From the UHGV virus genome UHGV-0278352: a stretch of 41,010 nucleotides of DNA; one strand, given 5' to 3'. The notes under the pieces were generated by a model that ran no database searches, had not been told where the DNA came from, and saw only the letters and a list, made by a program, of their open reading frames with translations. Below, piece after piece: positions 7,503 through 31,584 of the stretch. Numbering within the stretch: position 1 is the stretch's first letter; every line of letters begins with the position of its first letter. A program made the translations under genes and the position numbers. The stretch comes from a virus.

Positions 7503-10500
7503 ATGGCTGTCAAGAAAAATTATGATAAGTATAATATGTTTGCTTCATCTTCCAATACAGAGGAAGATGAAAAAGAAGATAATGTAAGTGTAGCTGCCCG
7601 GATTTTTGAAAGAAGAAGGCAGGCTTTAAAGCAGGATGGTGCCACATCTACAGAATCAGGGATGTCGCCGGCAGAGATATTCAAGAAAAGGAAAGAATAT
7701 TTGAAAACTGCAACACAAAGAACACCGGAGCAGACGGATATCCTTAGAGCAGACCGTGAGGAAGCGCGCAAATTATCACAGAAATTATCGGTCAGCCCGA
7801 ATAAAAAGCTGTACGCAACGCCAGACCAGCAGCCCCAAAATGCAGGCAGTCCATTTGCGCCTATACGCCAGACACCGGAACAAAAAAGCCAGGTTGAGGA
7901 ATATGCAAGGCGGTTGGCCGAGAAAACGAAGCAGGAAAAACAGGCAAAACAAAAGCGTGAACAGGAGCAGCAAGAAACGAAGAGAATTTTGGATAAGACA
8001 GGGTTCCAAGATGGGTACCAGTTCAAGCGATATGTTGATCTACCAAATGAACCTGATTTTGCAGAGACAATTGATAAGGCAAAAAACAATGATCCATCAT
8101 GGATGGAACGAATTCAATTCTGGAAAAATGAGGCCAATCCTGTTGAGGATGCATTTCGAGAAATCGAAAGCATGCAAAAAGGGCCGATATGGAATAGACA
8201 GCCTGCTAATAAAGAGGATATCCTTTCACGGACGGAAGGAATGGAAACCGAACATGCATCGTCTTTGCGTAAATACTCTATGCTAACCGATAACGAAAGG
8301 TATACATATGACTATGTATTTGAAAAGGCCGGGAGAGATGCAGCAAATAAATATCTCGCAACTTTACAAGATAAGATTAACCAGAGGAGTGCGTTGGATA
8401 GATATGAAAGAGCTGATAAATCTGTACCGAATGCATTGAAGATACCATATAACATCGGAAAGTCCGCTGAAATAGGAGCAGAGAGCGCCATAAGGGGAAT
8501 GGAATATCTACCGGACGCAATTCGAGGAAAACAGAAGGATTATAGTAATACAGAATCGGAATACTACCAAAGCTTATTAAATGGAAATGCGGGTGGGGCA
8601 GAGAGGTTTGCTTATAATACAGCATCAGTAATTGGAAATATGGCCCCTTCTATTGCGGCCGGAATGGTTTCGGGAGGGGCTGGTGCGACTGCTGGAGCAT
8701 CTGGAAAGATTGGAGCAATGGTTGCTAATGCCGCATCAAAAGGAACAGTAGGAATAGGAATACTATCGGCACAGACTGCGGGACAAACATACAGGCAGGA
8801 TATTATGGAGGGCAGGCCGGTTGAGGGTGCACAGATAAATGCTGCACTTACTGCTGCTGATGAATATGTAACAAACTGGCTGCTGGGAGGTATTGCAGCA
8901 TATGGCGGCGGAGCCGTGGGAAAAGCATTAAAGAACAGCAAGGTGGGTCAGGCTGCAAAGCAGGGCATATCAAATGCTTTGGCAAAGAATCCGGCAGTCC
9001 GTAGGGCGGTCCTTGGAGTTGCCAATTATGGAGGCGCTATGTTCTCAGAAGGAACCCAGGAAGCCGTTCAGGACCTGACAGAATCCATTCGGAAAAGTGC
9101 AATATACGGAGATAAACTTGACCTTGTTGGAGACCTCACAGATCCGCAAACCTGGGAGGATTTTGCATTAGGTGCAGTTACAGCAGGTATTTTGAATGCA
9201 CCAGGGACAATAGCAAACAACGTGGCAATCAATCAGTATGGAAAGAATCTGAATCCAGATTACCGCGATTACTCACAGATGGATATATCACCAGAGAACT
9301 ATACTTCACAGGACGATTACCGGGAAGCAGTAAATCTGAAAAAGCTGGCAGAAGAATATGCCGAAAGACAAAGACGGGGGGAATTTATTAAGAACCGTGA
9401 GAAGGCCGAGTATGATATGCGATTCCAGGAATTTCAGAATAATGTATCAGACCATAACAACGCCAAAAGTGATGATACAAACGCACAGAATGAACCACAT
9501 AGGCAAGAAGCGGTAAGAGACGAAGAATCCCAGGAGCAGACATATGAAGCTGAATATGGGCCGTATAATGAGCCGGTTGTAATGCCGGTTGAGGGAGAGA
9601 CTACGGGGAAAGATAGTTATATCCCAGAGACAAATAAAATAAACGTGGCAGAGGCTTATAGAACTCCATATGGAGAGAATGGAGGCAAGGCCCTGGAAGA
9701 AAACTACGATGGAAGTGTGGATATATCAACATATAACAGGGCCTTCGGACGTGTTTATGATGCGGGGAGATATGACGTTGATTTGTCTGTAGCGGAACAA
9801 TCAGCAATTGTATCTGTATTGACACCAGAGCAGGTAACAGCGGCATATAAAGCAGGAGCGCAAGATAGAAACAAAGAAATGCAGATTGACATTAAAACGG
9901 GCCTTCCGACAAACATGATTCAGGGAGAGACCAAAACGGGGGGGTTAGGGGCCGTCACGGAAAATGCTTCGGAGGCCCAGAGGACCGTTGCGGAACACGT
10001 CGGAAAAATGACTGGACTAAAAATAAACCTGGTAGATGATGTGGGAGAGGGAAATGCTACGGCTTCATACAAACATGGAGAAATCACATTGTCAGTCAAT
10101 GCTTCAGACTTTAATGGTGCATTATCACACGAACTTACCCATTTCATTAAGGATTATGCAAACGATGCCTATAATGTCTATACAAAGTATGCCGTACAGG
10201 CATTGATGGAATCCGATTCGGTGTCGTTGGAGGACCTGGTGGAGCAATATGAGACAGCATATAGTAAGGCAGGACAGGAAGCGAGTCGGGAAGAAATCAT
10301 GGACGATATTGTTGCGGATGCCACGCAAAAGTTTTTAAATGATTCTCAATTTGCAGAATCCATTGTTAAAAAAGATAGAACATTAGCCCAGAAAATAGTT
10401 GATTTCTTTACAGATGTTATAGACGCTTTAAAAAGCCTTATGAAAACAGGAAGCACCAGAAAAGCAGCAAAGGCACTGGAAGAAAAGGTAACATATTTTG

Positions 10501-13500
10501 AAGGATGCCGCGATATCTGGATGAATGCGGCTGGAGAGGCCAGTGAACGGTATAAATCAGGAGCAGAGCTTGTTGAAAATAGTCAGGCAGAAACAATGAC
10601 GAAGAGACAAGCACCAGGGGTAAGTGAGAAAACAGAACAGGGTATAAGATATCAGCTAGAGGATATTGACGATACCACAACCCAAAGGCGGATTGACGCA
10701 CTACTATATGAAAACCAGGCTTTGAAAGAAGCCAATGAGCTGCTGGAAAAACAGTTTAAAATAAGTCCAAAGAGTGCTGTAAGACAGCAGGATGTTAAAA
10801 AGGTGTCCCGCAATCTGCTAAAAGAATATAATAGCACATATAAACAGGAGACGTTAGAAAAGAATCTGGATAGGCTATATGGATATATAAGGGGGGCCGA
10901 ACATGTTGACAGTGCGGAATTGACAGAGGCGGCTACAAGTATAGCCAGAAGCGTGCTGAAACAGTCAAAACAGGTTGATACAGAACTCACACAGCAGTAT
11001 AAGGACCTGCGTAACCAGATCCGGAATACGAAAATTAATATTACTAACCAGGATAAAGCAGACTTAGCGTCAGCAGGAGGCTACAATGAATTTAGGAGAA
11101 GAAACTTCGGGCGTATGAAGCTGGGAAATGATGGCATATCCATTGACAGCTTTTACCAGGAGCTTTCAGCGCAGCACCCGGAACTGTTTTCTGAGGATGT
11201 AACGCATCCGGCAGACCAGCTTATGGCAATTGCTGATGTTCTCGACCAGACAGACGCACAGGTATCTAATCCATATCACGCCAATATGGATGAAATGGCA
11301 TATATGGTAGGGCAGGATATATTGCAGTCCTACTTTGATGTACGTCAGGCACAGCCTACTTTTGCGGACCGTAAAGCGGCAGAGGTACAGCGAGTGCAAC
11401 GGGAATACACTCGAAAGATGGCAGATTATAAAAAATCCCTTAAGCAGCAGTATATTAGTAAGCTGGAACAGGTTAGGAAGGAGAATGGTCAGAAAATACA
11501 GGAGCTATCGAAAGCCTATCGGAATCTGACTGCGGCACAGCAGAGGGAACAGGCGGAATTTTATAGAGAGAAGATGGATTCCCTCAGAAATGAAAAGAAT
11601 CAGGCACTGGCGGCTATGCAGCAAAGAAGTCGAGAACAGACAAAAATGATACGGGAAAGCCAGAGGGCCAGAGAAGCAAAGAAATCCATCATGAAGGAAA
11701 CGAAGGCCATGCAGAGCTGGCTGCTGAAACCAACTGATTCAAAGCATGTGCCAGAGGTTTTGAGGACTACTGTAGCAAGGTTCCTGGAAAATATTGATTT
11801 TTCATCCAATGAATTAAATAATGACGGTATTCCGACACAAAGAAGTCAGGCGTGGGATGATGCTCAAAAGGCATTTAGAAAGATAATTGAGAATGAGGGC
11901 GTGTGTGAAGATGGAGAAACCTTTATAGATATCGATCCGGATTTAGCCGTCAGGATGGAAGAACTGGTCAATAAAACGAAAGGAATAGATAAACTGGATA
12001 ACCTGGATGCATATACCCTGGAAGAACTGAAAAAGGTTGTTGTATCCATGAAAAAGGCAATTACAGAAGCAAATAGCCTTAAAAGCAATAGAAAATCAGG
12101 TCAACTGAGTATTCTTGCCGAAGGAGTGTTCCGTGATTTGGGAGATAGGAGGAACCGACAGGAATATGCAATGCTTGTAGGAGGAGCGGATAAGCTGCTC
12201 AATTATGATATGCTGGACCCGCAGACTATGTTTGGACAGATGGGGGATAATGTTAAATCAACATATGATTCCCTGAGAGATGGATTAAACAGAAAGACAG
12301 TGAAATTAAAAATTGCTCAGAACTACATTGAGGACCTTCTGAAAGAAAACAATGTATCCTTTAAAGATTTAAGAGAGTGGACAGGAAAAGATGCAAAACC
12401 GAAACGGTTTAAAACATCTTCTGGAACAATTGAACTCACGGTCTCAGAAGTAATGTCGCTGTATGAACTAAATAAACGTAATCAGGCGCGGGGACATATG
12501 TATGATAGAAATGGCGGTATTAAACATGCGCCAAGAGTCAGTAAACTACATTTTGAAAATGGAAAGCTTATCCCATCCAGAATTGATAAAAATTATTCTC
12601 CACTTAAGGTAAGCGAGGCCGATGTAGAGCTTATTGTCAATACACTTACTCCTGAACAAAAAGCACTGGCAGATGGTATGCAGCGTTTCATGGGAAATGA
12701 ATGTGCTGAGTGGGGGAATGAGGTAACCATGGAGATGTATGGCTATCAGAAATTCACTGCTGGTAACTACTTTCCTATTGTGACTGATAATAACTATATT
12801 CAGACAAAACAGGGGGATATGACAAAAAAGAAGAGTACCATTAAAAATATGGGAATCACAAAAAACACAATTAAGAATGCGAATAATCCAATTATAATCG
12901 AAGATATTTTTGATGTGTACACCAGACAGGTAGACCATATGAGTACCTATAATGCATATGTAATTCCTTTGTCGGATTTGAATAAGGTATTTAATTATAA
13001 GGATACGCGAAATGAGGCAAGCGGATCCAGCATAAAGCAGGAGATCGAGCGCACGTATGGGAAAGCGGGAAATGCTTACATTGATAAATTGCTTGATGAT
13101 ATAAATGGGAGTATTTATACTGAAAAAAGCATAGGGGACAAACTGCTTTCAAATATGAAAGCGGCGTCCGTCGCTGGAAATCTACGTGTTGCCATTCAGC
13201 AGCCAACAGCGTATGTCAGGGCCTCAATGGAAATATCACCGAAGTATCTGTCACGGGGAGCAATGACAATGACAAGAAAAGGACAGTGGGACCTTATATG
13301 CCAGTATGCGCCGATTGCGCAATGGAAAGACTGGGGATTCTATCGAATGGATACCAGCAGACAAATGAAGGATGTCATGTTTAACACGGATACCATGAAG
13401 CAGAGGTTTGTAAACAAGACAATGATATTAGCTGAAAAGGGGGATGAGTTAGCATGGAACAGGTTATGGAGGGCATGTGAGTTTGAGTGTCTGGATAAAC

Positions 13501-14954
13501 ACTCTGAACTAAAAGAAGGTACACAAGAATTCTATACAGAAGTAGGAAAAAGATTCAGCGAGATTGTTGACAAAACACAGGTGGTTGATTCCGTGCTTCA
13601 TCGAACCCAGATTATGAGAAGCAACCATGCGCTTGATAGACTGGCAACTAACTTCATGGCAGAACCATTGAAATCTTATAATATGCTCTATCGTGCAGCT
13701 GTAGATATCAAATTGAACAAGAAGGGGGCTAAAAGCCGTGCTGTACGCGCTGGAGCTGTGTTTATCTTAAACGGTGTATGCACGGCGGCGGCGGCCGCGG
13801 TTGTGGATGCCTTAAGGGATGATGATAGGGATAAAGATTACTGGGATAAGTATAGGGAGAGTCTGAAAGATAATATGTTAGACTCAATCAATATTATCAA
13901 TAATATTCCATGGGGAAAGGATGTGGTTTCGGCTGTAGTGCAAGGATACTCACCGACCAGGGCTGACTTATCTGGATTCCAAGATATCTATTATGCATTT
14001 AGCAGAATAGATAAATTAAAGGAAGGAGACAGCAAATATACCCCTCAGTCAGTGGCAATATACAGTGCAAGGATGGCAAGTAAACTTTTGGGCCTACCTG
14101 TTAATAGCATGGTACGAGATGCAGAGGCCATAGTTGACACTGCCATAAATGAATCGGGTAACGAATCAGCAGATTATAAATGGTTAAAACAGAAATATGC
14201 CATTGGTAGTAAAGAAAACCTGGGGCTATATGTTGGTATGATGATTGAAGCTTACCGCAACGATGATAATGAATTCCAGAAACAGATTAAAGAAGATTTA
14301 AATGCAGCAGGTATTGATAATGATAGCATATCTCAAAAAATCAAGACATTAATCAAGGGTGAACTTATATCAGACAAATCAGTGGACCCCAGAGTTGACG
14401 AAGCCGCAAAGGCGAAAATAAGTATGGACTTGAAATCATACGAAGCCGCCATAAATGAGCTGATGGAAGATGGATATGCAGGTAAACTGATAGGCTCTGC
14501 AATCACAGCGAGAATAAATCAGTTGAGTGGGGATGATGAGATAGACTGGGAGGCAGAGGCGGAGGTGGAACCGGATGAACTATATGGAGAGATACTGACA
14601 GGAAAGGCGGCGGAAGAGGATGATTGGAACCCATATACCTCCGGGGACATCATAACAGCGATAGAAATGATAGACAGGACCCCTCAATCGTTAGAGACAT
14701 TTAATCATATTGCATCAGCTATGGTTGACTACAAAGTGAAAGCTGGAAAGAAGGCAGAGGACGCTGCATCGACAATGAAGTCATCCATAACAAGAAAATA
14801 CAAAGCAGAATGGATTGAGGCATATCGGACCGGTAATAGAGCAGGATATGAAGAAATTCAAAGAAAATTAAACTATCTTAAGGTGAACGGAAAAACATTA
14901 TATAGCGGAAAAGAATACTCTTCCTGGAGGGAGGAAGCAAGAAAAAAGCAGTAA
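7503..14954 (+). CDS. giant 2483-aa phage protein with an HExxH (zincin-like) motif, a Gly/Ala-rich tape-measure-like segment and extended coiled coils; function unknown (candidate virion or ejected polyvalent protein, or atypical tape measure)
   Basis: Single uninterrupted ORF; SHELTHF at nt 10125-10145 (about aa 876); Gly/Ala-rich hydrophobic block around aa 395-560 (nt about 8690-9180); last gene of the late operon, followed by a strong terminator. Confidence 0.85.
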   Translation: MAVKKNYDKYNMFASSSNTEEDEKEDNVSVAARIFERRRQALKQDGATSTESGMSPAEIFKKRKEYLKTATQRTPEQTDILRADREEARKLSQKLSVSPNKKLYATPDQQPQNAGSPFAPIRQTPEQKSQVEEYARRLAEKTKQEKQAKQKREQEQQETKRILDKTGFQDGYQFKRYVDLPNEPDFAETIDKAKNNDPSWMERIQFWKNEANPVEDAFREIESMQKGPIWNRQPANKEDILSRTEGMETEHASSLRKYSMLTDNERYTYDYVFEKAGRDAANKYLATLQDKINQRSALDRYERADKSVPNALKIPYNIGKSAEIGAESAIRGMEYLPDAIRGKQKDYSNTESEYYQSLLNGNAGGAERFAYNTASVIGNMAPSIAAGMVSGGAGATAGASGKIGAMVANAASKGTVGIGILSAQTAGQTYRQDIMEGRPVEGAQINAALTAADEYVTNWLLGGIAAYGGGAVGKALKNSKVGQAAKQGISNALAKNPAVRRAVLGVANYGGAMFSEGTQEAVQDLTESIRKSAIYGDKLDLVGDLTDPQTWEDFALGAVTAGILNAPGTIANNVAINQYGKNLNPDYRDYSQMDISPENYTSQDDYREAVNLKKLAEEYAERQRRGEFIKNREKAEYDMRFQEFQNNVSDHNNAKSDDTNAQNEPHRQEAVRDEESQEQTYEAEYGPYNEPVVMPVEGETTGKDSYIPETNKINVAEAYRTPYGENGGKALEENYDGSVDISTYNRAFGRVYDAGRYDVDLSVAEQSAIVSVLTPEQVTAAYKAGAQDRNKEMQIDIKTGLPTNMIQGETKTGGLGAVTENASEAQRTVAEHVGKMTGLKINLVDDVGEGNATASYKHGEITLSVNASDFNGALSHELTHFIKDYANDAYNVYTKYAVQALMESDSVSLEDLVEQYETAYSKAGQEASREEIMDDIVADATQKFLNDSQFAESIVKKDRTLAQKIVDFFTDVIDALKSLMKTGSTRKAAKALEEKVTYFEGCRDIWMNAAGEASERYKSGAELVENSQAETMTKRQAPGVSEKTEQGIRYQLEDIDDTTTQRRIDALLYENQALKEANELLEKQFKISPKSAVRQQDVKKVSRNLLKEYNSTYKQETLEKNLDRLYGYIRGAEHVDSAELTEAATSIARSVLKQSKQVDTELTQQYKDLRNQIRNTKINITNQDKADLASAGGYNEFRRRNFGRMKLGNDGISIDSFYQELSAQHPELFSEDVTHPADQLMAIADVLDQTDAQVSNPYHANMDEMAYMVGQDILQSYFDVRQAQPTFADRKAAEVQRVQREYTRKMADYKKSLKQQYISKLEQVRKENGQKIQELSKAYRNLTAAQQREQAEFYREKMDSLRNEKNQALAAMQQRSREQTKMIRESQRAREAKKSIMKETKAMQSWLLKPTDSKHVPEVLRTTVARFLENIDFSSNELNNDGIPTQRSQAWDDAQKAFRKIIENEGVCEDGETFIDIDPDLAVRMEELVNKTKGIDKLDNLDAYTLEELKKVVVSMKKAITEANSLKSNRKSGQLSILAEGVFRDLGDRRNRQEYAMLVGGADKLLNYDMLDPQTMFGQMGDNVKSTYDSLRDGLNRKTVKLKIAQNYIEDLLKENNVSFKDLREWTGKDAKPKRFKTSSGTIELTVSEVMSLYELNKRNQARGHMYDRNGGIKHAPRVSKLHFENGKLIPSRIDKNYSPLKVSEADVELIVNTLTPEQKALADGMQRFMGNECAEWGNEVTMEMYGYQKFTAGNYFPIVTDNNYIQTKQGDMTKKKSTIKNMGITKNTIKNANNPIIIEDIFDVYTRQVDHMSTYNAYVIPLSDLNKVFNYKDTRNEASGSSIKQEIERTYGKAGNAYIDKLLDDINGSIYTEKSIGDKLLSNMKAASVAGNLRVAIQQPTAYVRASMEISPKYLSRGAMTMTRKGQWDLICQYAPIAQWKDWGFYRMDTSRQMKDVMFNTDTMKQRFVNKTMILAEKGDELAWNRLWRACEFECLDKHSELKEGTQEFYTEVGKRFSEIVDKTQVVDSVLHRTQIMRSNHALDRLATNFMAEPLKSYNMLYRAAVDIKLNKKGAKSRAVRAGAVFILNGVCTAAAAAVVDALRDDDRDKDYWDKYRESLKDNMLDSINIINNIPWGKDVVSAVVQGYSPTRADLSGFQDIYYAFSRIDKLKEGDSKYTPQSVAIYSARMASKLLGLPVNSMVRDAEAIVDTAINESGNESADYKWLKQKYAIGSKENLGLYVGMMIEAYRNDDNEFQKQIKEDLNAAGIDNDSISQKIKTLIKGELISDKSVDPRVDEAAKAKISMDLKSYEAAINELMEDGYAGKLIGSAITARINQLSGDDEIDWEAEAEVEPDELYGEILTGKAAEEDDWNPYTSGDIITAIEMIDRTPQSLETFNHIASAMVDYKVKAGKKAEDAASTMKSSITRKYKAEWIEAYRTGNRAGYEEIQRKLNYLKVNGKTLYSGKEYSSWREEARKKQ

Positions 14955-15318: not shown

Positions 15319-15675
15319 ATGGAAAATGCAAAAGAATCAAAAGACATAGCGGAGTTACTTATACACCTGGGTATTAATAGGACATATGTAGGATATCATT
15401 ATATTGTTTATGGAATATCCCGTGCATCGGTGGATCCTAATTTGGTAACCTACATATCAAAGGGACTATATGTGGAGATAGCATCACATTTTCACACATC
15501 GACGGAATGCGTAGAACGAAATATAAGAACAGCAATTCATACGATATGGTCATATGGTGATAGGAAACTACTGAACGCAGTGTTTGGTTCAACGCTAAAG
15601 GAGAGGCCCTGTAATGGGGAATTTATAAGGGCCTTGTTGTGTTATGTCGAAAACAAGGACATGGTTGGAAAGTAA
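15319..15675 (+). CDS. standalone Spo0A C-terminal DNA-binding domain protein (Spo0A_C-like, no receiver domain)
   Basis: Aligns by eye with the B. subtilis Spo0A effector domain: [24 protein letters not shown] vs [55 protein letters not shown] vs [43 protein letters not shown] vs KPTNSEFIAMVA. RBS GGTGAGGAGG. Confidence 0.8.
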   Translation: [118 protein letters not shown]

Positions 15676-15705: not shown

Positions 15706-15834
15706 AGTGTTTTCCCCTTTACTTGCTATCTGCAATGTAGTATGATAATTAACAATTGTACCCATATTAGTAACAAGGGAGGTTTGTTAATTTGAAGGAT
15801 AGTATTAACATACTTACTACCAGAATAACAAAGG

Positions 15835-17220
15835 CTAGAAATTCCAGTAAACACGTATGTTTTCGCCTTCTACCACTACTTTTTCTATAAGCATTCCGGC
15901 TATGTCGCATTGAGTAGCGTAGTCAACATTACGTATACAGGTTGACATTTTGATTATTTCTTCTGATTTTAAAGTATTCTGTGCAGATAAGAGAACTTTG
16001 ACCTTTTCTCGTTGCTGGTTAAGTTCTCTTATTTTATCGTCTATTTGTTCTCTGGATACAGAACCGAGGCTATATAAGTCAATAAGCCGTTCCTGGCGCG
16101 AATCAATCTGTTTCAACTCCTGAAGCAGAGAGGCTGTATCATTTTTGCCATTACCAGTAGAATAATCTTTGTATTTTAATGATTCAATTTGAGTAATGAC
16201 TTTATCTTCTAATGCTTCTTGACGATATATTTTGGATTGGCACCTATTTGGCATATCTATTTTACGGCCCTGACAGGAATAATATCCGTATTCTTTTTTT
16301 ATGCCACCTATTTTTGTTTGCGAGTTACGACGATAATAAGGGAGCCCGCAGGTACCACAAACTGTTAATCCAGATAACATATACTTTGTGTAAGTGGTAT
16401 GTTCTCCAAAAGTGGATAGATAAGTATTTAATCGGTTGTTGGCCTTTTCGAAAAGCTCATTGTCAATCAGAGGCATATGATTTCCTGGGAAATATTCATC
16501 TTTATATTTGACCATGCCTATGTAAACTTTATTTTGTATGGTATAAGTGATACCGGTACTATCTGACCAATTGCCATATTTATTTGAGTATTTTTGAGAG
16601 AGATAACGGGCCATATTTTTAACATTGTACGGCATGTTGGGGATACCGTTTGCAGCAATAGTGAATAGTTCCCGTATCTGCATGGCCTCATAGTCGTTGA
16701 CCTCTAAGTTACCCTCTTTATAATCATAACCTATCGGGGGTCTGCTGGTTCCTTTCCAGTATCCTTTTCTGGCTCGTCCTTTCATTCCCATTGTCATTCG
16801 TTCTTTGATGTTTTCGCGTTCTAGTTGGGCGAATGTAGCAAGTAACCCTACAGCAGCTCGACCGAAGGGCGTACTGGTATCGAAGCTTTCACTCATTGAT
16901 ACAAAATCAACATCATTTTTCAGAAAAACATCTTCTATCAGATACATAGTATCTTTTTGTGAACGTGAGATACGATCAAGTTTGTATACCAAAACGCTGT
17001 CATAGGCTTTTATCTCTGATATGAGCTTTTGAAGCCCAGGGCGCTCCAGATTGGAGCCGGAGAAACCAGGGTCTATGTATAGTTCTGATACCACCCATCC
17101 CATTGCCTTGCAGTATTGCACCAGTCGTTCCTTTTGTTCATCAATGGAATACCCCTCCTGTGCCTGCTCATACGTTGAAACACGTATGTAAATAGCTACT
17201 CGTTTAACATCTTTACGCAT
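15835..17220 (-). CDS. large serine recombinase (integrase)
   Basis: N-terminal resolvase domain RVAIYIRVSTYEQ (catalytic Ser), recombinase domain, zinc ribbon CGTCGLPYY...YYSCQGR and C-terminal coiled coil; 461 aa. Confidence 0.9.
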   Translation of the reverse strand: MRKDVKRVAIYIRVSTYEQAQEGYSIDEQKERLVQYCKAMGWVVSELYIDPGFSGSNLERPGLQKLISEIKAYDSVLVYKLDRISRSQKDTMYLIEDVFLKNDVDFVSMSESFDTSTPFGRAAVGLLATFAQLERENIKERMTMGMKGRARKGYWKGTSRPPIGYDYKEGNLEVNDYEAMQIRELFTIAANGIPNMPYNVKNMARYLSQKYSNKYGNWSDSTGITYTIQNKVYIGMVKYKDEYFPGNHMPLIDNELFEKANNRLNTYLSTFGEHTTYTKYMLSGLTVCGTCGLPYYRRNSQTKIGGIKKEYGYYSCQGRKIDMPNRCQSKIYRQEALEDKVITQIESLKYKDYSTGNGKNDTASLLQELKQIDSRQERLIDLYSLGSVSREQIDDKIRELNQQREKVKVLLSAQNTLKSEEIIKMSTCIRNVDYATQCDIAGMLIEKVVVEGENIRVYWNF

Positions 17221-22557: not shown

Positions 22558-23328
22558 ATGAGAATCATTAGCATTATTAATTTAAAGGGTGGAGTTGGAA
22601 AAACCATGACAGCCCTTGAAATGGGATACATATTGCACCATAGATACGGACAGAGCGTATTGCTGGTGGACAATGATAAGCAGGGGAATCTGAGCCAAGC
22701 CATGGGAAGATATCATGCAGAGGACCATATGTGCGGCACGGCCCAGCTTCTGGCAGGGCGGGATGTGAATAAAATCATGAGATTTACGGATGAGTCGGGC
22801 CTGGGGGTGGTGAGTGCCAATATGTCCCTTCTGACATCCACATACCGGTTATTGAGTAAATCCGGGGAGAAAGTGGAGCGGTTTGAAACCTTGCGTAATG
22901 CCAGGGCAGAGGATGGGGAAACGTACGATTATGTTATTATAGATAATCCTCCAGATATGGGGATTAATGTAATAAATGCACTAATGGTCACCAATGACGT
23001 AATAGTGCCGGTAAAACTGGACCAGTGGGCGCTGGACGGGTTGGAAATCATCAAGGACCAAATATCAGAATGCAGGGAGCGAAACCCGGGAATAAGTCTA
23101 CTGGGAATCCTGGTCACTATGTACCGTAATAACGATACAAATGTAGCCGGAGTTGAATGGTTGCAGGACCAGGGATATAAAATGTTTGAGGAAAAAATAC
23201 GGTACAGCGAAAAAGTATCTGAAAGCATAATGATGGGGAAGCCACTGGAGGAATACAGCCCCAGAAGTGCGGCTGCTGCCAGTTACCGCAGATTTGTGGA
23301 AGAATACAGGAGAATGGCCGGTGAGTAA
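22558..23328 (+). CDS. parA: ParA/Soj-family partition ATPase
   Basis: Deviant Walker A NLKGGVGKTM; 256 aa; followed by ParB. Confidence 0.85.
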   Translation: MRIISIINLKGGVGKTMTALEMGYILHHRYGQSVLLVDNDKQGNLSQAMGRYHAEDHMCGTAQLLAGRDVNKIMRFTDESGLGVVSANMSLLTSTYRLLSKSGEKVERFETLRNARAEDGETYDYVIIDNPPDMGINVINALMVTNDVIVPVKLDQWALDGLEIIKDQISECRERNPGISLLGILVTMYRNNDTNVAGVEWLQDQGYKMFEEKIRYSEKVSESIMMGKPLEEYSPRSAAAASYRRFVEEYRRMAGE

Positions 23329-23349
23329 AATCAAATTCAGGAGGACATT

Positions 23350-24372
23350 ATGTCGTGGTCATTTAAGGAATTATTAAATACGGTTGAAACACCAGGTTCA
23401 GATTTCGCAGAAATCTATTTAAGCCCTTATGAAGTAGAGCCTTCAGAAAGTAATTTTTATAGTCAGGAAAACATTGAGGAGCTGGCAGATTCCATGCTTA
23501 CGGTAGGACAACAGCAGCCGACTGTACTTGGACAGGTAGATGGCGTGTACAAAATTATAAGCGGCCATAGAAGGAATCTCGCCAATATACATAATATAGA
23601 ATGCGGGGCGCTTCCCAGGGACTACAAGGCGAGATACTTCTATAAAGAAATGACATCAGCCTTATTTGAACTATCTCTTATCATCGGAAATGCCTTTAAC
23701 CGCAAACTTACCCCATATGAAGAAACAGAGCAAGCTGCTCGTTTGAAAGCGGCCCTTATACGGGCCAGAGAAGAAGATGGAATAATTATAAAGGGAAAAA
23801 TGCGGGATATTGTTGCGGATATCCTTAAGACCAGCAAGACCCAAGTGGCAAGGATGGATAAAATAAACAATGGCCTGGTGCCAGAGGCAAAGGAACAGTT
23901 TAAGGCAGGAACAATAGGAAAAACTGCTGCATATGAGACTGCAAAACTTCCGGCAGAGGAACAGAAGGAAATTGCCGCTGCTGCGGCAGAGGGGAAGGAA
24001 GTCCGCCACAAAGAAATTACAGAACGTGTCAGAGAGAAGCAGGAAATCAGGGCGGCACAGAAGGCCGCAGAACGTGCTGAAAAGGCCGCAAAGCGGGCGG
24101 AACATGCGCAAATTGCAGCTGCACAAGCTGGGGTGCAAGCGGAGAAAGCGGCGGAAAATGCAGAAATGACCGCTACAGGATTTACAGATACAGCCATGAA
24201 CCAGCCGGAGCAGTCAGAAGCGGAAAAACAGGAATGGTCAACCAGGGAGTGGGCCATATACACATTACAGGAAATCATGATGCAGGCAAGTCTTGTAACT
24301 GACGACGATTTGATAGTTTTACAAGATATTTTAGTGAAAGTAACTGAGCGGAGCCATAAGAGGACAAAATGA
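23350..24372 (+). CDS. parB: ParB-family partition protein (ParB/Srx N-domain, Ala-rich coiled C-terminus)
   Basis: KIISGHRRNLA (GHRR motif); HTH region; C-terminal AAAAEGKEVRHKEITERVREKQEIRAAQKAAERAEKAAKRAEHAQ. Confidence 0.8.
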   Translation: MSWSFKELLNTVETPGSDFAEIYLSPYEVEPSESNFYSQENIEELADSMLTVGQQQPTVLGQVDGVYKIISGHRRNLANIHNIECGALPRDYKARYFYKEMTSALFELSLIIGNAFNRKLTPYEETEQAARLKAALIRAREEDGIIIKGKMRDIVADILKTSKTQVARMDKINNGLVPEAKEQFKAGTIGKTAAYETAKLPAEEQKEIAAAAAEGKEVRHKEITERVREKQEIRAAQKAAERAEKAAKRAEHAQIAAAQAGVQAEKAAENAEMTATGFTDTAMNQPEQSEAEKQEWSTREWAIYTLQEIMMQASLVTDDDLIVLQDILVKVTERSHKRTK

Positions 24373-29049: not shown

Positions 29050-29060
29050 TTGAAACATAG

Positions 29061-29117
29061 GGCTGAAAGGAAAGTTGTTGATACAACTGTATGCGGTTCG
29101 ATTCCGTGTCAGCTCAT
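29061..29117 (+). other. tRNA-like fragment (acceptor stem, anticodon arm with GAT, T-arm GGTTCGATTCC, discriminator A; no D-arm) - candidate attP core for the tyrosine integrase
   Basis: GGGCTGA pairs with TCAGCTC; AGTTG-ttGATac-CAACT anticodon-like arm; TGCGG-TTCGATT-CCGTG T-arm; 57 nt, too short for a functional tRNA. Confidence 0.4.
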
Positions 29118-29200
29118 TAATAATTATAGAAGGAAAGGGGATGGATACCAATGGGATTACATGACAAGAGCGTGAAGGCAAAACAGGGAGGAAATAAAGC

Positions 29201-29280
29201 GGGCGGTACACCAACCGACCAAAGTTATCTGTACCGCCCTTACGCTTAAGGACAGTATACCATATTCTGATTCCTTAAGC
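29201..29280. promoter_or_regulatory. two consecutive perfect inverted repeats immediately upstream of the tyrosine integrase (candidate recombinase arm or regulator binding sites)
   Basis: GGGCGGTACA-19 nt-TGTACCGCCC (29201-29239) and GCTTAAGGA-19 nt-TCCTTAAGC (29244-29280). Confidence 0.5.
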
Positions 29281-29300
29281 AATACGAAGGAGGAAGGGTT

Positions 29301-30346
29301 ATGAGTAATACAGATAATCAGAGTGTAAAAGCGGAAATTATTAATAACGTAATTGTGGCAATGACGTACTATCTGAGCAGTGACGTGCTGGAAATGCTGG
29401 AAAGAGTGCTAACAAAGAATCTGGTTGACGTAGTGATTGAGAGGATTAATACGCTGCCAATGGAAATGAAAGACAGCATAGACAATCAGAACGGATACAT
29501 ATTGCAACTCTTCTTATATAAAAAGAAGAAATTGGCAGAGGGGACAAAGTATGGTTATGTAAGTGCAATTAAGCGCTTGGTCACTTTGGTATATAAACCA
29601 TTGACCGAAATGGAAGAACCGGACATTTATTATTACCTTGACTGGTACGAACACAAGAACGTTTCGCAAACAGGACATAAGAACCAGCCAAAGACCATAA
29701 ACAATGAGCGACGGTTTCTTTCCGCATTTTTTACCTGGATGCGTAAAGAAAAGCTGATTAGTGCAAATCCAGTTGAAGCAATTGAACCGCAGAAGGTTAC
29801 CAAAAAGCCGATTGACTATTCACACCCGAAGAGATGGCGCGATTGAAAGATGGATGTGAAAGCCTGAGGGAGCGGGCCATACTGGAGGTATTGCGTAGTA
29901 CCGGAGCCAGAGTAGGCGAGGTGGTTGCAATCACAATTGACCTGGTTAATTGGGAGACAGGAGACGTAATGATTTTGGGCGAAAAGGGCAACCGATACCG
30001 CACACTGTATCTGGACCCGGACGCTATCTATCATTATAGGAAATATCTGAATAGCAGGACAGATCATAACCCAGCCATATTTGTAAGCTCTAAGGAGCCG
30101 CATCAGGCATTATCTACATGCGCCGTACGAGGTATTCTTAAAGATGTTGCTAAACGGGCTGGTGTGACAAGCAGGGTGTATCCGCATAAAATGCGGAAAA
30201 CTCTGGGAATGGAACTGAAGAACAAAGGTGTTGACATAGGAACAATACAGGAGATTATGGGACATGCAGATTCGAGAGTGACTTCTTTATATTATGCGCA
30301 GTCGACCCCAGACACGCTGAGGGTGGTAAGAAACAAGGCGGCATAA
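29301..30346 (+). pseudogene. int: tyrosine recombinase/integrase interrupted by a 1-nt frameshift (or sequencing error) near 29819
   Basis: ORFs 29301..29846 (SAM-like N-domain) and 29834..30346 (catalytic domain with R in RSTGARVGE, H-x-x-R in YPHKMRKT, H..Y in HADSRVTSLYY). The continuous protein is ...KKPIDY/FTPEEMARLKDG... if one T is restored in the TT run at 29819-29820. Confidence 0.75.
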
Positions 30347-30400
30347 TTTACATATATTTACAGTGTTTACACATAGAAACCAGCGGGGGAGAGGCCCCGC

Positions 30401-30459
30401 GATTAGACTTGATAACCTTATTAAGATTAGGCCCTTCCCTCTGGATTAGGAGGGAAGGG
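30401..30459 (+). promoter_or_regulatory. candidate rolling-circle double-strand origin: CTTGATA nick-site motif (30408-30414) plus a perfect 10-bp hairpin (30432-30459) directly upstream of rep
   Basis: gaCTTGATAacctTATTAAg resembles the phiX174/pC194 nick region (CTTG/ATA); CCCTTCCCTC-tggattag-GAGGGAAGGG hairpin. Confidence 0.45.
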
Positions 30460-30484
30460 TTATAAACAGGAGTGTAATAATTAT

Positions 30485-31285
30485 ATGGCACATGTTGAGA
30501 GTGTATGCTATGCAGGACGTACAAAAAAAATACGGAATTACTATACAGCTAAGTACAATGATGGAAAGCGCCCAAAGAAGAGGGAGGAGAGAGGGGATAA
30601 AAAGAATCCAACCAGTGAGCAACAGAAAAAGATTAACAGGAAAATGACACTAAGGAATCTGACAATGACATTAGATGCGAATTTCAGCAGCAGGGATTTG
30701 TATATTACATATAATTTCGAGAAAGAGAAAAGGCCGGGAGATGCGAAAAAGTTTAAGGCCATAGTTAGACAACTACTGAAACAGTTAAGAAAAATGTACC
30801 GGAAGGAAGGAATTCCATTGCGCTATATTTGGGTAGGGGAACGCGGGGAACGTGGTGCGGAGCATATTCATATGGTGCAGTCTGGAGGCTTTACGCTGGA
30901 GGAACTGGCAAAAATATGGCCGTATGGATGGGTTACCGGGAGACCCATGGATGAGAGCGGAAGCTACCATAAGCTTGCAGCATATTTTATAAAATACAGC
31001 GAAAAAACGATGAAAACAGAAGGCCGGTTGCAGGGGAAGAGATACAATCCATCACAGAATTTGATACGTCCAGTGCCGGATAAAGATAAAATCAAGAAAA
31101 AGAATTTTGATCCGGGAGCAATACCAATACCGGATGGATATTATTTGGATAAGGATACAGTGGAGTTTGGGGTACAGGATAACGGGTACAAATTTTTGGA
31201 ATATACCCTTGTTCTTCTGCCGGGTTATCATATGGCTGCCCATGACAAGGCTGCTAAGCGACAACGAAAGAAAAAGCGGACATAA
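30485..31285 (+). CDS. rep: HUH-endonuclease rolling-circle replication initiator (Rep_1/pC194-like motifs)
   Basis: HUH motif AEHIHMVQS; Tyr motif AAYFIKYSEK resembling the pC194-family YxxKY active-site region; basic N- and C-termini. Confidence 0.65.
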   Translation: MAHVESVCYAGRTKKIRNYYTAKYNDGKRPKKREERGDKKNPTSEQQKKINRKMTLRNLTMTLDANFSSRDLYITYNFEKEKRPGDAKKFKAIVRQLLKQLRKMYRKEGIPLRYIWVGERGERGAEHIHMVQSGGFTLEELAKIWPYGWVTGRPMDESGSYHKLAAYFIKYSEKTMKTEGRLQGKRYNPSQNLIRPVPDKDKIKKKNFDPGAIPIPDGYYLDKDTVEFGVQDNGYKFLEYTLVLLPGYHMAAHDKAAKRQRKKKRT

Positions 31286-31329
31286 AGCACCGCTTTAATA
31301 AGCATGCGTAGAAATGAGAGGTGAAGGTA

Positions 31330-31584
31330 ATGCCTAACATAAGGCGTGTTGACTGTCCGTACTATGAGACCAGAAGCACATCGGACAAAAAAATGGCAAC
31401 AATAACATGCAAAAATATCGAGAATAATCTGGGATTTGATGTCAGAAATCAGATTCTATTTGCTACGCATGCGGAAAAGGAAAACTATTCTGAGCTATTT
31501 TGTTCAGATATGTTTGATACATGCCCTTACTATAAAGCCATATATGGATATAAGGGGACGAAAGGAGACTGTAATGAAAAATAA
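31330..31584 (+). CDS. Cys4 zinc-binding small protein (CPYY...C...C...CPYY); possible late-gene regulator
   Basis: ORF 31321..31584 with ATG 31330; sits just upstream of the packaging module. Confidence 0.45.
   Translation: MPNIRRVDCPYYETRSTSDKKMATITCKNIENNLGFDVRNQILFATHAEKENYSELFCSDMFDTCPYYKAIYGYKGTKGDCNEK

What the first reader, a model, noticed from the sequence alone, without database searches (positions are those of the whole stretch)
29050..31285. Integrase-dso-rep module with tRNA-like att fragment; together with parAB and a serine recombinase this suggests a phage-plasmid or nested mobilizable element
Within 2.3 kb there is a 57-nt tRNA-like fragment (acceptor stem, anticodon arm, T-arm GGTTCGATTCC, no D-arm), two perfect inverted repeats with 19-nt spacers, a frameshifted tyrosine integrase, a CTTGATA nick motif (30408-30414) next to a perfect 10-bp hairpin, and a HUH Rep. 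Int plus RCR-Rep is the signature composition of integrative mobilizable elements and RCR plasmids. The same window also carries a ParA/ParB partition pair (22558..24372) and a separate large serine recombinase with an ImmR/ImmA module. Both recombinase genes are internal to the phage gene set, with late genes on one side and early genes on the other. The window looks like an unintegrated or episomal genome, or contains an element nested inside the phage.
Basis: partly seen in the sequence, partly recalled or inferred. Interest (0 to 1): 0.6.

Follow-up and report, generated by a model that had tools for sequence, protein, structure and literature searches.

The report
Phage replication origin plus broken recombinase
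The block is this temperate gut phage's own rolling-circle-type replication origin and initiator, next to a conserved accessory recombinase gene that a one-base deletion has broken here; it is not a separate mobile element or a tRNA attachment site.

Summary
Most of the interpretation does not hold.

- **Rep and origin.** Rep (30485-31285) is an HUH initiator (Pfam PF23343). Its origin is a GC hairpin, ACTTGATAA and a second hairpin. The same origin motif precedes Rep homologues in cultured Clostridia and Butyrivibrio phages. Rep is the only recognisable replication gene in the window.
- **Recombinase.** It is Xer-like and split by a 1-nt deletion. The broken allele is real and occurs in hundreds of assemblies.
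- **Conservation.** The int-rep-terS order is kept in 35 of 37 close TerL relatives.
- **Integration.** The phage integrates through its serine recombinase between host rnr and smpB. The crossover lies near 15,800-15,812, about 13 kb away. The window is the excised circular form.
- **tRNA-like element.** Its acceptor and T arms are kept with G·U pairs and compensatory changes. It sits inside integrated prophages, matches no host tRNA and has no second copy.
- **Inverted repeats.** They belong to a conserved leader. The minus strand carries TTGnnn-17-TATA(A/C)T in 59 of 59 variants, then a terminator hairpin. I read this as a roughly 58-nt antisense RNA against the recombinase leader.
- **Verdict.** An ordinary phage replication module with an undescribed regulatory leader.

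The parts
29060..29116 (+). tRNA-like RNA element with only the top half of a tRNA: 7-bp acceptor stem, T arm, short central hairpin, no D arm. It is a probable phage-borne tRNA derivative, not an att site.
   Evidence: Sequence read. 99.2% of acceptor and T-arm cells pair across 12 variants, with G.U pairs on the + strand and 3 pairs changed on both sides; slid controls pair 30-40%. Not called by ARAGORN or Rfam. A real tRNA-Ile occupies the same slot in L041-L044. No host match.
29151..29249 (+). Small upstream ORF of 32 aa (MGLHDKSVKAKQGGNKAGGTPTDQSYLYRPYA). It has a conserved SD-ATG, runs through hairpin 1 and stops in the 5' arm of hairpin 2. Its role as a leader peptide is inferred.
   Evidence: An ORF in the equivalent position occurs in four recombinase lineages but is absent in the L049-L061 group. 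The conserved ribosome-binding-site and ATG block is visible.
29190..29247 (-). Predicted small antisense RNA of about 58 nt.
   Evidence: 8 of 10 stem pairs change on both sides in 36 variants. Mismatches are A.C on the + strand, i.e. G.U on the - strand: 24 against 0. Minus-strand RNA folds into a long hairpin with a UUGG(UC) apical loop and a U tail in 10 lineages, z -1.5 to -4.2.
29254..29282 (-). Minus-strand sigma-70-type promoter for the antisense RNA: -35 TTGCTT (29282-29277), 17-nt spacer, -10 TGG-TATACT (29259-29254).
   Evidence: TTGnnn-17-TATA(A/C)T, always with a 17-nt spacer, is found in 59 of 59 distinct leaders. The invariant alignment columns are exactly these boxes.
29244..29280 (+). 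It lies between the uORF stop and the recombinase Shine-Dalgarno and encloses the antisense -10 box.
   Evidence: Wobble pairs are on the + strand only: 7 T.G against 0 A.C. The arms co-vary and the loop length varies from 10 to 19 nt between lineages.
29301..30346 (+). Xer-like tyrosine recombinase gene, split by a 1-nt deletion (TT instead of TTT at 29819-29820) into 181-aa and 170-aa ORFs.
   Evidence: The nearest solved relatives are XerC-like 4a8e, XerA and XerD. The catalytic residues are invariant in intact homologues. The exact frameshifted N-fragment is indexed in 351 blocks of public assemblies.
30383..30459 (+). Replication origin (dso): GC hairpin 30383-30400, nick motif ACTTGATAA 30407-30415 (predicted nick G30411/A30412), AT box TTATTAAG 30418-30425, and hairpin 30432-30459.
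   Evidence: The same hairpin + ACTYGATAA + N3-4 + (T)ATTAAC precedes Rep in Arawn, phiCs5676-1, L045, L041 and L191. A variant motif, CCTTGTAATGGGTATTAAC, goes with the second Rep subtype. The pC194 origin contains CTTGATAATAAGG (PMC7072734).
30485..31285 (+). HUH rolling-circle-type replication initiator (Rep).
   Evidence: PF23343, 57.2 bits (cut-off 27.8), and phrog_3584, E 2.8e-52. Invariant H127-x-H129 and Y167, with Y171 in YFIKY. Homologues are annotated as replication initiators in cultured phages.
31321..31584 (+). Conserved 87-aa Cys-rich ORF between Rep and terS; function unknown.
   Evidence: Present in nearly all TerL relatives, including some without int or rep. No family hit.
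15800..17220 (-). Large serine recombinase (15835-17220) and its attP crossover region (about 15800-15812). This is the system that actually integrates the phage.
   Evidence: phrog_95, E 6.7e-119. The identical protein lies at prophage-chromosome junctions beside rnr-secG-pmi-eno in contigs up to 610 kb, and in the circular arrangement in L167. Colinearity with the window breaks at about 15803. The other junction is Spo0A_C next to smpB.
22558..24372 (+). ParA-like ATPase and ParB-like protein. They are carried inside the integrated prophage.
   Evidence: Both are present in the integrated copies L164-L169.

Best explanation
The 2.3-kb block is the end of the early region of an integrative temperate phage of Lachnospiraceae-type hosts.

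(a) Replication module. After excision or infection, the HUH Rep recognises the origin just upstream of its own gene. It is predicted to nick the + strand at ACTTG/ATAA, between the GC hairpin and the second hairpin, and to prime rolling-circle-type replication with host enzymes. The terminase genes about 0.8 kb downstream of rep would package the products. The family assignment, the motifs and the origin-Rep co-variation are shown. Nicking and the replication mode are inferred.

(b) Accessory recombinase. The Xer-like tyrosine recombinase is a conserved accessory gene, not the lysogeny integrase. It always sits near the early/late boundary upstream of the terminase genes, even in unrelated phage backbones. 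My best guess at its function, with low confidence, is resolution or cyclisation of circular or multimeric phage DNA. In this phage it is inactivated by a 1-nt deletion and is evidently dispensable.

(c) Leader. The gene is preceded by a conserved regulatory leader. A minus-strand promoter drives a short antisense RNA whose terminator hairpin is the first '19-nt-spacer' inverted repeat. The second repeat is a sense-strand hairpin between a small uORF and the recombinase ribosome-binding site. Antisense pairing with the leader is proposed to hold recombinase translation down (inferred).

(d) tRNA-like element. It is a phage-borne tRNA derivative keeping only the acceptor and T arms. It probably serves as an RNA processing or stability signal for the leader transcript (inferred).

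(e) Integration is carried out about 13 kb away by the serine recombinase, between host rnr and smpB.
For: - Rep family and motifs.
- Origin motif conserved with Rep, independently of int, and switching together with the Rep subtype. pC194 origin sequence.
- No other replication gene recognised in the window.
- Rep homologues are the annotated initiators of the cultured phages Arawn, phiCs5676-1, PhiS63 and phiSM101.
- Synteny in 35 of 37 close TerL relatives.
- Recombinase internal to integrated prophages that have another integrase.
- Serine-recombinase junctions, attP break and second junction.
- The frameshift allele is real and widespread, also on different Rep/TerL backgrounds.
- The recombinase lies upstream of the terminase genes in unrelated backbones.
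- Leader: 135 of 135 profile hits lie directly upstream of a recombinase start in 2.46 Mb. Minus-strand promoter in 59 of 59 leaders. Covariation and strand-specific wobble. Minus-strand folds.
- tRNA-like pairing. Real tRNA genes in the same slot.
Against: - No experiment shows nicking, ssDNA intermediates or the antisense transcript.
- No recombination site for the tyrosine recombinase was found, so its function is a guess.
- The uORF is missing in some lineages.
- The strand-asymmetry argument rests on few independent substitutions.
- The tRNA-like covariation rests on 12 related sequences.
- ParA/ParB-like genes, and distant Rep relatives on phiSM101-like 38-kb C. perfringens 'plasmids', leave room for an episomal phase.
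Confidence: 0.7

Rival explanations
1. One reading: a nested integrative mobilizable or AICE-like element (int + RCR Rep). It would use the tRNA-like piece as attP, integrate in a host tRNA gene, and ride inside the phage.
For: Int next to an HUH Rep is the composition of pSAM2-type AICEs and some IMEs (general knowledge). A tRNA-like sequence lies 185 nt upstream of int. The host tRNA-Glu(CTC) near attB shares the T loop and a similar acceptor, 19 of 25 nt in the 3' part by my own count.
Against: - No host tRNA match.
- No second repeat copy or flanking direct repeats.
- The block is internal and contiguous in integrated prophages.
- It is syntenic in 35 of 37 close relatives.
- Rep is the only replication initiator of the phage.
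- The tRNA-like element includes the 5' acceptor strand, which an att remnant would not need, and it is restricted to one recombinase lineage.
- Int is frameshifted in the widespread form.
Confidence: 0.03
2. Phage-plasmid model: besides integrating, the phage persists as a low-copy plasmid. It would use Rep and its origin for replication, ParA/ParB for partition, and the Xer-like recombinase for multimer resolution.
For: ParA-like and ParB-like genes. Rep relatives at 25% identity are on non-mobilizable 38-kb C. perfringens plasmid records. phiSM101 is described as an episomal prophage (PMC3442830). The window and L167 show the circular junction.
Against: The same phage is found integrated at one chromosomal site in many long contigs. 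A complete serine-integrase, repressor and ImmA lysogeny module is present. The supposed resolvase is broken in the prevalent allele. A circular junction is equally expected from induced or packaged phage DNA. The ParB_N match is below Pfam's cut-off.
Confidence: 0.15
3. The two inverted repeats are double-stranded DNA sites, either recombinase core sites or a repressor operator, rather than RNA structures. The apparent 'covariation' would be co-evolution of symmetric half-sites.
For: Inverted repeats next to a recombinase gene are typical of XerS/difSL, XerH/difH and Cre/loxP (general knowledge). Symmetric half-sites also give paired changes. The second repeat brackets the antisense promoter, as an operator would.
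Against: Spacers of 16-19 nt (repeat 1) and 10-19 nt (repeat 2) vary between lineages. This is hard to reconcile with a dimer on duplex DNA and is far from the 6-8 (to 11) bp spacers of known core sites. Wobble pairs are strand-specific. On the minus strand the loop of repeat 1 forms a further G.U-containing helix and is followed by a U tract in all lineages.
Confidence: 0.1
4. The frameshift is a sequencing or assembly error, or a programmed ribosomal frameshift, and the recombinase is functional in this phage.
For: The lesion is a single base in a short T run. All catalytic residues are intact downstream. A near-identical intact allele exists, differing by 4 mismatches and 1 gap in 2.24 kb.
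Against: The exact 181-aa frameshift product is indexed in 351 blocks from different studies and assemblers, and on divergent Rep/TerL backgrounds. The only productive slip window, 29816-29843, contains no X XXY YYZ heptamer (read). TT against TTT is too short for efficient slippage.
Confidence: 0.05

Closest known systems
HUH Rep initiators with a CTTGATA-type origin: pC194/pUB110-family RCR plasmids, phiX174 gpA, and among tailed temperate phages P2 gpA
   Same: HUH motif and a Y-x-x-K-Y-type tyrosine motif. The origin lies immediately upstream of rep and contains CTTGATAA, as in the pC194 origin TTCTTTCTTATCTTGATAATAAGG. A single initiator relies on host replication enzymes.
   Different: The sequence family is PF23343/phrog_3584. 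No PDB or NCBIfam sequence match was found. The replicon is a 41-kb tailed-phage genome with terminase packaging. The nick motif lies between two hairpins rather than in a hairpin loop. Nicking is untested.
Replication modules of Butyrivibrio phage Arawn/Idris, Clostridium phage phiCs5676-1, and C. perfringens PhiS63/phiSM101
   Same: Rep homologues of 25-37% identity sit in the early region. The same hairpin + ACTTGATAA + ATTAAC motif precedes rep in Arawn and phiCs5676-1. phiCs5676-1 also has the second, internal Xer-like recombinase with the same leader.
   Different: In those phages rep is not adjacent to the recombinase, or there is no recombinase. PhiS63 shows no clear CTYGATA motif.
Actinomycete integrative conjugative elements (pSAM2 type) and integrative mobilizable elements: int + RCR Rep + tRNA attB
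   Same: A tyrosine recombinase gene lies next to an HUH Rep gene, with a tRNA-like sequence nearby.
   Different: There are no element boundaries, no host tRNA match and no transfer genes. The recombinase is not at an element edge. The block is a syntenic part of a phage genome.
Single-recombinase Xer systems (XerS/difSL, XerH/difH, archaeal XerA/dif) and P1 Cre/loxP
   Same: The best sequence relatives are XerC-like, XerA and XerD. The catalytic residues are conserved. It is an accessory recombinase in a temperate phage that has other means of lysogeny, as Cre is in P1.
   Different: Scores are below every NCBIfam Xer equivalog cut-off. No dif/lox-like site (11-13-bp arms, 6-11-bp spacer) was found beside the gene. 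The function is untested.
Cis-antisense control of recombinase or initiator genes: IS10 RNA-OUT/RNA-IN, and plasmid R1 CopA/CopT with the tap leader peptide
   Same: A short, stable stem-loop RNA with a U tail and a YUNR-like apical loop is transcribed from a promoter inside the leader, opposite to the regulated gene. A small leader ORF lies upstream of the regulated gene.
   Different: Nothing has been shown experimentally. The regulated gene is a phage tyrosine recombinase. There is no match in Rfam.

Membership tests
HUH rolling-circle replication initiators (Pfam PF23343 REP_ORF2-G2P; PHROG 3584) | Profile-HMM match above the curated threshold | tested here: met
   PF23343 at 57.2 bits against a cut-off of 27.8, E 2.1e-15. 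phrog_3584 at E 2.8e-52 over residues 1-243.
HUH rolling-circle replication initiators (Pfam PF23343 REP_ORF2-G2P; PHROG 3584) | HUH metal-binding motif and catalytic tyrosine motif | tested here: met
   H127-I-H129 and Y167 are invariant in 7 homologues down to 26% identity. The window protein has YFIKY with two Tyr.
HUH rolling-circle replication initiators (Pfam PF23343 REP_ORF2-G2P; PHROG 3584) | Cognate double-strand origin with a conserved nick sequence next to the gene | tested here: met
   The GC hairpin + ACTYGATAA + N3-4 + (T)ATTAAC is conserved 35-75 nt upstream of rep in distant phages. It changes to CCTTGTAATGGGTATTAAC with the second Rep subtype.
HUH rolling-circle replication initiators (Pfam PF23343 REP_ORF2-G2P; PHROG 3584) | Site-specific nicking with a covalent 5'-phosphotyrosine link; ssDNA intermediates | not testable with these tools
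   Needs biochemistry or 2-D gels.
Integrative mobilizable element / AICE (int + RCR Rep, tRNA att) | Recombinase and att at the element boundary; element flanked by direct repeats | tested here: not met
   No second copy of the tRNA-like 3' half at up to 3 mismatches. No flanking direct repeats. The block is internal in integrated prophages.
Integrative mobilizable element / AICE (int + RCR Rep, tRNA att) | attP identical to the 3' part of a host tRNA gene | tested here: not met
   0 exact matches for the 22-nt 3' end in 185,579 species genomes. A degenerate pattern gave 69 hits, none in Lachnospiraceae.
Integrative mobilizable element / AICE (int + RCR Rep, tRNA att) | Presence/absence as a discrete unit relative to otherwise similar hosts | tested here: not met
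   35 of 37 TerL relatives of at least 70% identity keep int-rep in place. The two exceptions (L191, L195) differ throughout the upstream region. Int and Rep occur separately elsewhere.
Phage-plasmid | Partition and plasmid-type replication genes in a phage genome | tested here: met
   ParA-like: phrog_164 at E 9e-53, AAA_31 at 121.8 bits. ParB-like: phrog_4715 at E 1.5e-39, but ParB_N at 24.1 bits is below the 26.3 cut-off. Rep is present.
Phage-plasmid | Maintained extrachromosomally instead of integrating | tested here: not met
   The same phage is integrated between rnr and smpB in contigs up to 610 kb. An additional episomal phase cannot be excluded.
Xer-type tyrosine recombinases | Catalytic R-K-H-R-H-Y set and two-domain architecture | tested here: met
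   PF13495 + PF00589. R204, K229, H296, R299, H322 and Y332 are invariant in 16 homologues. In the window itself the gene is split by a frameshift.
Xer-type tyrosine recombinases | Score above the curated XerA/XerC/XerD/XerS equivalog cut-offs | tested here: not met
   XerA_Arch 163.7 against 220; XerD 126.2 against 329.6; XerC 111.4 against 335; XerS 60 against 267.
Xer-type tyrosine recombinases | A dif-like core site (inverted 11-13-bp arms, 6-11-bp spacer) | tested here: inconclusive
   None was found next to the gene. The 13/11/13 palindrome inside the gene is not kept at synonymous positions in relatives. The site could lie elsewhere.
tRNA genes | Recognition by tRNA models (cloverleaf with D and anticodon arms) | tested here: not met
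   ARAGORN gave 0 genes in the window and in the relatives carrying the element. Rfam gave no tRNA hit at E up to 10.
tRNA genes | Acceptor stem and T arm maintained by base pairing | tested here: met
   99.2% of cells are paired across 12 variants. GU intermediates and 3 pairs with changes on both sides were seen. Slid controls pair 30-40%.
Cis-encoded antisense RNA regulators | Conserved promoter on the opposite strand, with a stable stem-loop and U-tail terminator | tested here: met
   TTGnnn-17-TATA(A/C)T in 59 of 59 leaders. Hairpin covariation. Minus-strand folds with a U tail, z -1.5 to -4.2.
Cis-encoded antisense RNA regulators | The transcript exists and represses the target | not testable with these tools
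   Needs RNA-seq or Northern blot and reporter fusions.

The most novel reading that the evidence does not exclude
The Xer-like recombinase, its antisense-RNA/uORF leader and (in one lineage) a D-armless tRNA-like RNA may together form an undescribed, widely distributed phage module. There are at least 204 IMG/VR contigs and 438 protein clusters. The module is always placed just upstream of the terminase genes in several unrelated phage backbones. It would carry out a site-specific DNA transaction tied to replication or packaging, such as cyclisation or multimer resolution at a still unidentified site. It is tightly throttled by antisense RNA and can be lost without harming the phage.
Probability: 0.3. 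Interest if true: 0.55.

Novelty: new member of a known kind. Interest (0 to 1): 0.35.

Why it matters
The result corrects an attractive but wrong reading. An integrase next to a rolling-circle Rep and a tRNA-like sequence is not always a nested mobile element. Here it is the phage's own replication module plus an accessory recombinase.

It also gives three practical outputs for a common group of human-gut Lachnospiraceae prophages:
- a sequence definition of the origin (hairpin, ACTYGATAA, ATTAAC);
- the true integration site (rnr/smpB, via a serine recombinase);
- a conserved antisense-regulated leader that marks a recombinase family of unknown role, found in hundreds of gut phage contigs.

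That leader and the tRNA-like RNA are cheap to test by RNA-seq. They could explain how these phages keep a second recombinase silent.

Tried and rejected
1. tRNA or att reading. ARAGORN and Rfam were negative. Exact and degenerate searches of 185,579 genomes found no host tRNA. There is no second copy in the window.
2. Flanking direct repeats around the block: only short chance-level pairs.
3. A 13/11/13 palindrome inside the recombinase gene (29715-29751) as a possible core site. It follows from the conserved peptide RFLSAFFTWMRKEK and decays at synonymous sites in relatives.
4. Second copies of the leader repeats that could support inversion or excision: none.
5. Programmed frameshifting or sequencing error for the split recombinase. 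There is no slippery heptamer in the productive window, and the allele recurs in hundreds of assemblies.
6. Sequence search of Rep against PDB and NCBIfam: nothing.
7. DNA-level search of the block against GenBank phages: no match.
8. Folding energy of the whole 256-nt plus-strand leader: not significant, z -1.5. The signal comes from comparative analysis instead.
9. A link between the tRNA-like element and tmRNA or SmpB, suggested by integration next to smpB. No tmRNA gene was found near the site. The neighbouring tRNA-Glu is only loosely similar.
10. Literature searches for this recombinase/Rep arrangement found nothing relevant.


Full report
**1. What the window is.**
The window is a temperate tailed-phage genome.
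- Late genes: TerS 32044, TerL 32549, a P22-like portal 34030 and the major head protein 37299. They continue across the window ends into tail-fibre and internal-virion genes and a 2483-aa protein, up to 15675.
- Lysogeny module, on the minus strand: serine recombinase 15835-17220, M78 peptidase, and an HTH + S24 repressor.
- Early genes, 20-31.9 kb, include ParA-like and ParB-like genes.
- The finding's block is the last part of the early region, directly before terS.

**2. Checking the observation.**
All features exist as described.
- The 57-nt tRNA-like element is at 29060-29116.
- The two perfect inverted repeats with 19-nt spacers, and the 10-bp hairpin at 30432-30459, are reported. A further GC hairpin lies at 30383-30400.
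- CTTGATA is at 30408.
- The recombinase is split into 29301-29846 (SAM-like N domain) and 29834-30346 (catalytic domain).
- Inserting one T into the TT run at 29819-29820 gives a 348-aa protein. This protein is 100% identical to an intact gene in IMG/VR locus L004. L004 differs from the window by only 4 mismatches and this one gap over 2.24 kb.
- Rep matches PF23343 above threshold and phrog_3584.

**3. Rep and its origin.**
- Seven homologues down to 26% identity keep H127-x-H129 and Y167. The window protein reads YFIKY.
- Rep relatives are the annotated replication initiators of Butyrivibrio phages Arawn and Idris, Clostridium phage phiCs5676-1, and C. perfringens PhiS63 and phiSM101. There they lie in early regions without an adjacent recombinase.
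- In Arawn, phiCs5676-1, L045, L041 and L191, the 35-75 nt before rep contain a GC hairpin followed by ACT(T/C)GATAA, 3-4 nt, then (T)ATTAAC. This is the arrangement at 30383-30425 in the window.
- Lineages carrying a second, divergent HUH Rep (PHVHILM ... LATYV) have a matching variant, CCTTGTAATGGGTATTAAC. Origin and initiator therefore co-vary.
- The pC194 origin used experimentally contains CTTGATAATAAGG (PMC7072734). From memory, phiX174 gpA cuts CAACTTG/ATATTAATAAC. On that basis I predict nicking between G30411 and A30412.
- No helicase, primase, polymerase or other initiator was recognised in the window. Rep is therefore the phage's own initiator.

**4. Is the block a separate element? 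No.**
- The order int-rep-orf31321-(orf31574)-terS-terL is kept in all eight closest IMG/VR loci.
- It is also kept in 35 of 37 TerL relatives of at least 70% identity with enough upstream sequence.
- The tRNA-like 3' half has no second copy, and nothing brackets the block.
- The recombinase family (438 protein clusters; 204 IMG/VR stretches) also occurs without Rep beside it. In phiCs5676-1, rep lies 5 kb away. In a Lacrimispora prophage with DnaB and methylases, no Rep was found within the 10-kb flanks. In two unrelated backbones it lies 0.1-1 kb upstream of different terminase types.

**5. How the phage integrates.**
- The exact serine recombinase protein of the window is found in long bacterial contigs (up to 610 kb) at a junction. 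Phage repressor, ImmA, ParA and ParB genes are on one side. RNase R (rnr), secG, a mannose-6-phosphate isomerase and enolase are on the other.
- The window is colinear with these contigs up to about 15803-15812, then diverges. Contig L167 continues as the window does.
- The other prophage end, a Spo0A_C-domain gene at 15319-15675, abuts smpB.
- The phage therefore inserts between rnr and smpB by serine recombination. The window shows the excised or circular attP form.
- The int-rep block lies about 13 kb from attP.
- In an Enterocloster citroniae genome, a related prophage has a different 447-aa tyrosine integrase at its edge. The Xer-like gene, the tRNA-like element and Rep sit about 10 kb inside it.

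**6. The frameshift.**
- The 181-aa product, with its frameshift tail, is indexed in 351 blocks of public assemblies from many studies and assemblers. For comparison, the serine recombinase is in 357 blocks and the Spo0A_C protein in 342.
- It also occurs in phage variants whose Rep, TerS and TerL differ.
- It is therefore a genuine, persistent allele. The recombinase is dispensable for this phage.
- There is no slippery heptamer in the only window (29816-29843) where a -1 shift would be productive.

**7. The inverted repeats: a conserved leader.**
- A profile of the 115 nt before the recombinase start finds 135 hits in 2.46 Mb of collected loci. All lie directly upstream of a recombinase homologue on the same strand.
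- Hairpin 1 (29201-29239) has 8 of 10 pairs changed on both sides among 36 variants.
- Its mismatches are A.C on the plus strand, which is G.U on the minus strand: 24 against 0. Hairpin 2 shows the opposite pattern, 7 T.G against 0 A.C.
- On the minus strand, all 59 distinct leaders carry TTGnnn, exactly 17 nt, then TATA(A/C)T. In the window the -35 box is at 29282-29277 and the -10 box at 29259-29254. Hairpin 1 and a T-rich tract follow.
- The invariant alignment columns are these promoter boxes.
- Folded as minus-strand RNA, ten lineages give a long hairpin whose '19-nt loop' closes into a further G.U-containing helix. The apical loop is UUGG(UC), a YUNR-type loop, and a U tail follows. The z-scores range from -1.5 to -4.2.
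- I conclude that a small antisense RNA of about 58 nt (about 29247 to 29190) is encoded opposite the recombinase leader.
- A small uORF with a conserved SD-ATG runs through the target region and stops in hairpin 2 in four lineages, but not in all.
- The proposed logic is antisense pairing that blocks uORF or recombinase translation. It is inferred by analogy with IS10 RNA-OUT and R1 CopA/tap.
- Loop lengths vary between lineages: 16-19 nt for hairpin 1 and 10-19 nt for hairpin 2. This argues against duplex-DNA recombinase sites.

**8. The tRNA-like element.**
- Twelve variants, a 57-nt form and 63-66-nt forms, keep the acceptor stem and T arm. 99.2% of cells pair, with G.U intermediates on the plus strand and three pairs changed on both sides. 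Slid controls pair 30-40%.
- The lower half is variable and non-canonical. No tRNA model accepts it.
- It occurs only in the recombinase lineage of at least 88% identity.
- In L041-L044 a genuine tRNA-Ile(TAT) sits in the same slot. Other relatives have tRNA-Ser or tRNA-Met next to the gene.
- I read it as a phage tRNA derivative reduced to the 'top half'. It may still serve as an RNase P or CCA-enzyme substrate that defines the 5' end of the leader transcript. That role is speculative.
- It is not an att site.

**9. What the recombinase does.**
- This remains unknown. It is Xer-like: closest to 4a8e, XerA and XerD, but below all Xer equivalog cut-offs.
- It has invariant catalytic residues.
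- No dif/lox-like site was found.
- Its constant position just before the packaging genes, in phages that have a separate lysogeny integrase, suggests a role in processing circular or multimeric phage DNA. Its loss here shows that any such role is not essential.

**10. Phage-plasmid question.**
- ParA/ParB-like genes are present.
- Distant Rep relatives sit on phiSM101-like 38-kb C. perfringens plasmid records. phiSM101 is described as an episomal prophage (PMC3442830).
- Against this, the phage is repeatedly found integrated. An extra episomal phase is possible but unsupported.

**11. Verdict.**
The Rep and origin reading is right. The reading of the window as an unintegrated genome is right in the sense of an excised circle. 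The att fragment, nested element and IME readings are refuted. The module is an ordinary member of a known kind of phage replication module. The conserved antisense-regulated leader of an uncharacterised recombinase family is the part worth following up.

Noticed in passing
window 15319-15675 (+): A 118-aa protein consisting only of a Spo0A C-terminal DNA-binding domain (PF08769, E 1.5e-29). It is the last phage gene before attP and lies next to host smpB in the integrated state. It may be a phage tool to interfere with host sporulation control.
   Followed up: partly
window about 15800-15812; loci L164-L169 and L259-L262: The prophage inserts between host rnr (RNase R; secG, pmi and eno lie beyond it) and smpB. 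Both junctions were recovered from metagenome and genome contigs. tRNA-Glu(CTC) genes lie about 1.2 kb beyond smpB.
   Followed up: yes
window 31321-31584 (+): An 87-aa Cys-rich protein (CPYY...C..C...CPYYK) is conserved between rep and terS in almost all TerL relatives, including lineages without int or rep. It matches no family. It could be a packaging or late-gene factor.
   Followed up: partly
window 29186-29300; 135 related loci: A leader is conserved upstream of a whole family of phage Xer-like recombinases. It has a minus-strand promoter with invariant 17-nt spacing and a terminator hairpin, i.e. a predicted small antisense RNA. There is no Rfam match.
   Followed up: yes
L021 5225-6097; L027 5163-6086: In some lineages the Rep slot holds a second, divergent HUH Rep subtype (PHVHILM ... 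LATYV). It comes with its own origin variant, CCTTGTAATGGGTATTAAC. This is modular exchange of initiator and origin at a fixed genome position.
   Followed up: partly
L005/L016, L057/L207, L202: Other contigs also carry recombinase genes broken into two tblastn pieces at different positions. This suggests repeated independent inactivation of the gene, or assembly errors. It was not examined.
   Followed up: no
window 7503-14954 (+): A 2483-aa virion-associated giant protein (phrog_22978, E 1e-239 over residues 1320-2336), of unknown function, in a P22-like-portal phage.
   Followed up: no
window 4168-5160 and 5147-6088 (+): Two adjacent tail-fibre-like genes hit overlapping sets of tail-fibre families through their C-terminal parts (phrog_1980, 5668, 5481, 6921). 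They may be alternative receptor-binding proteins.
   Followed up: no
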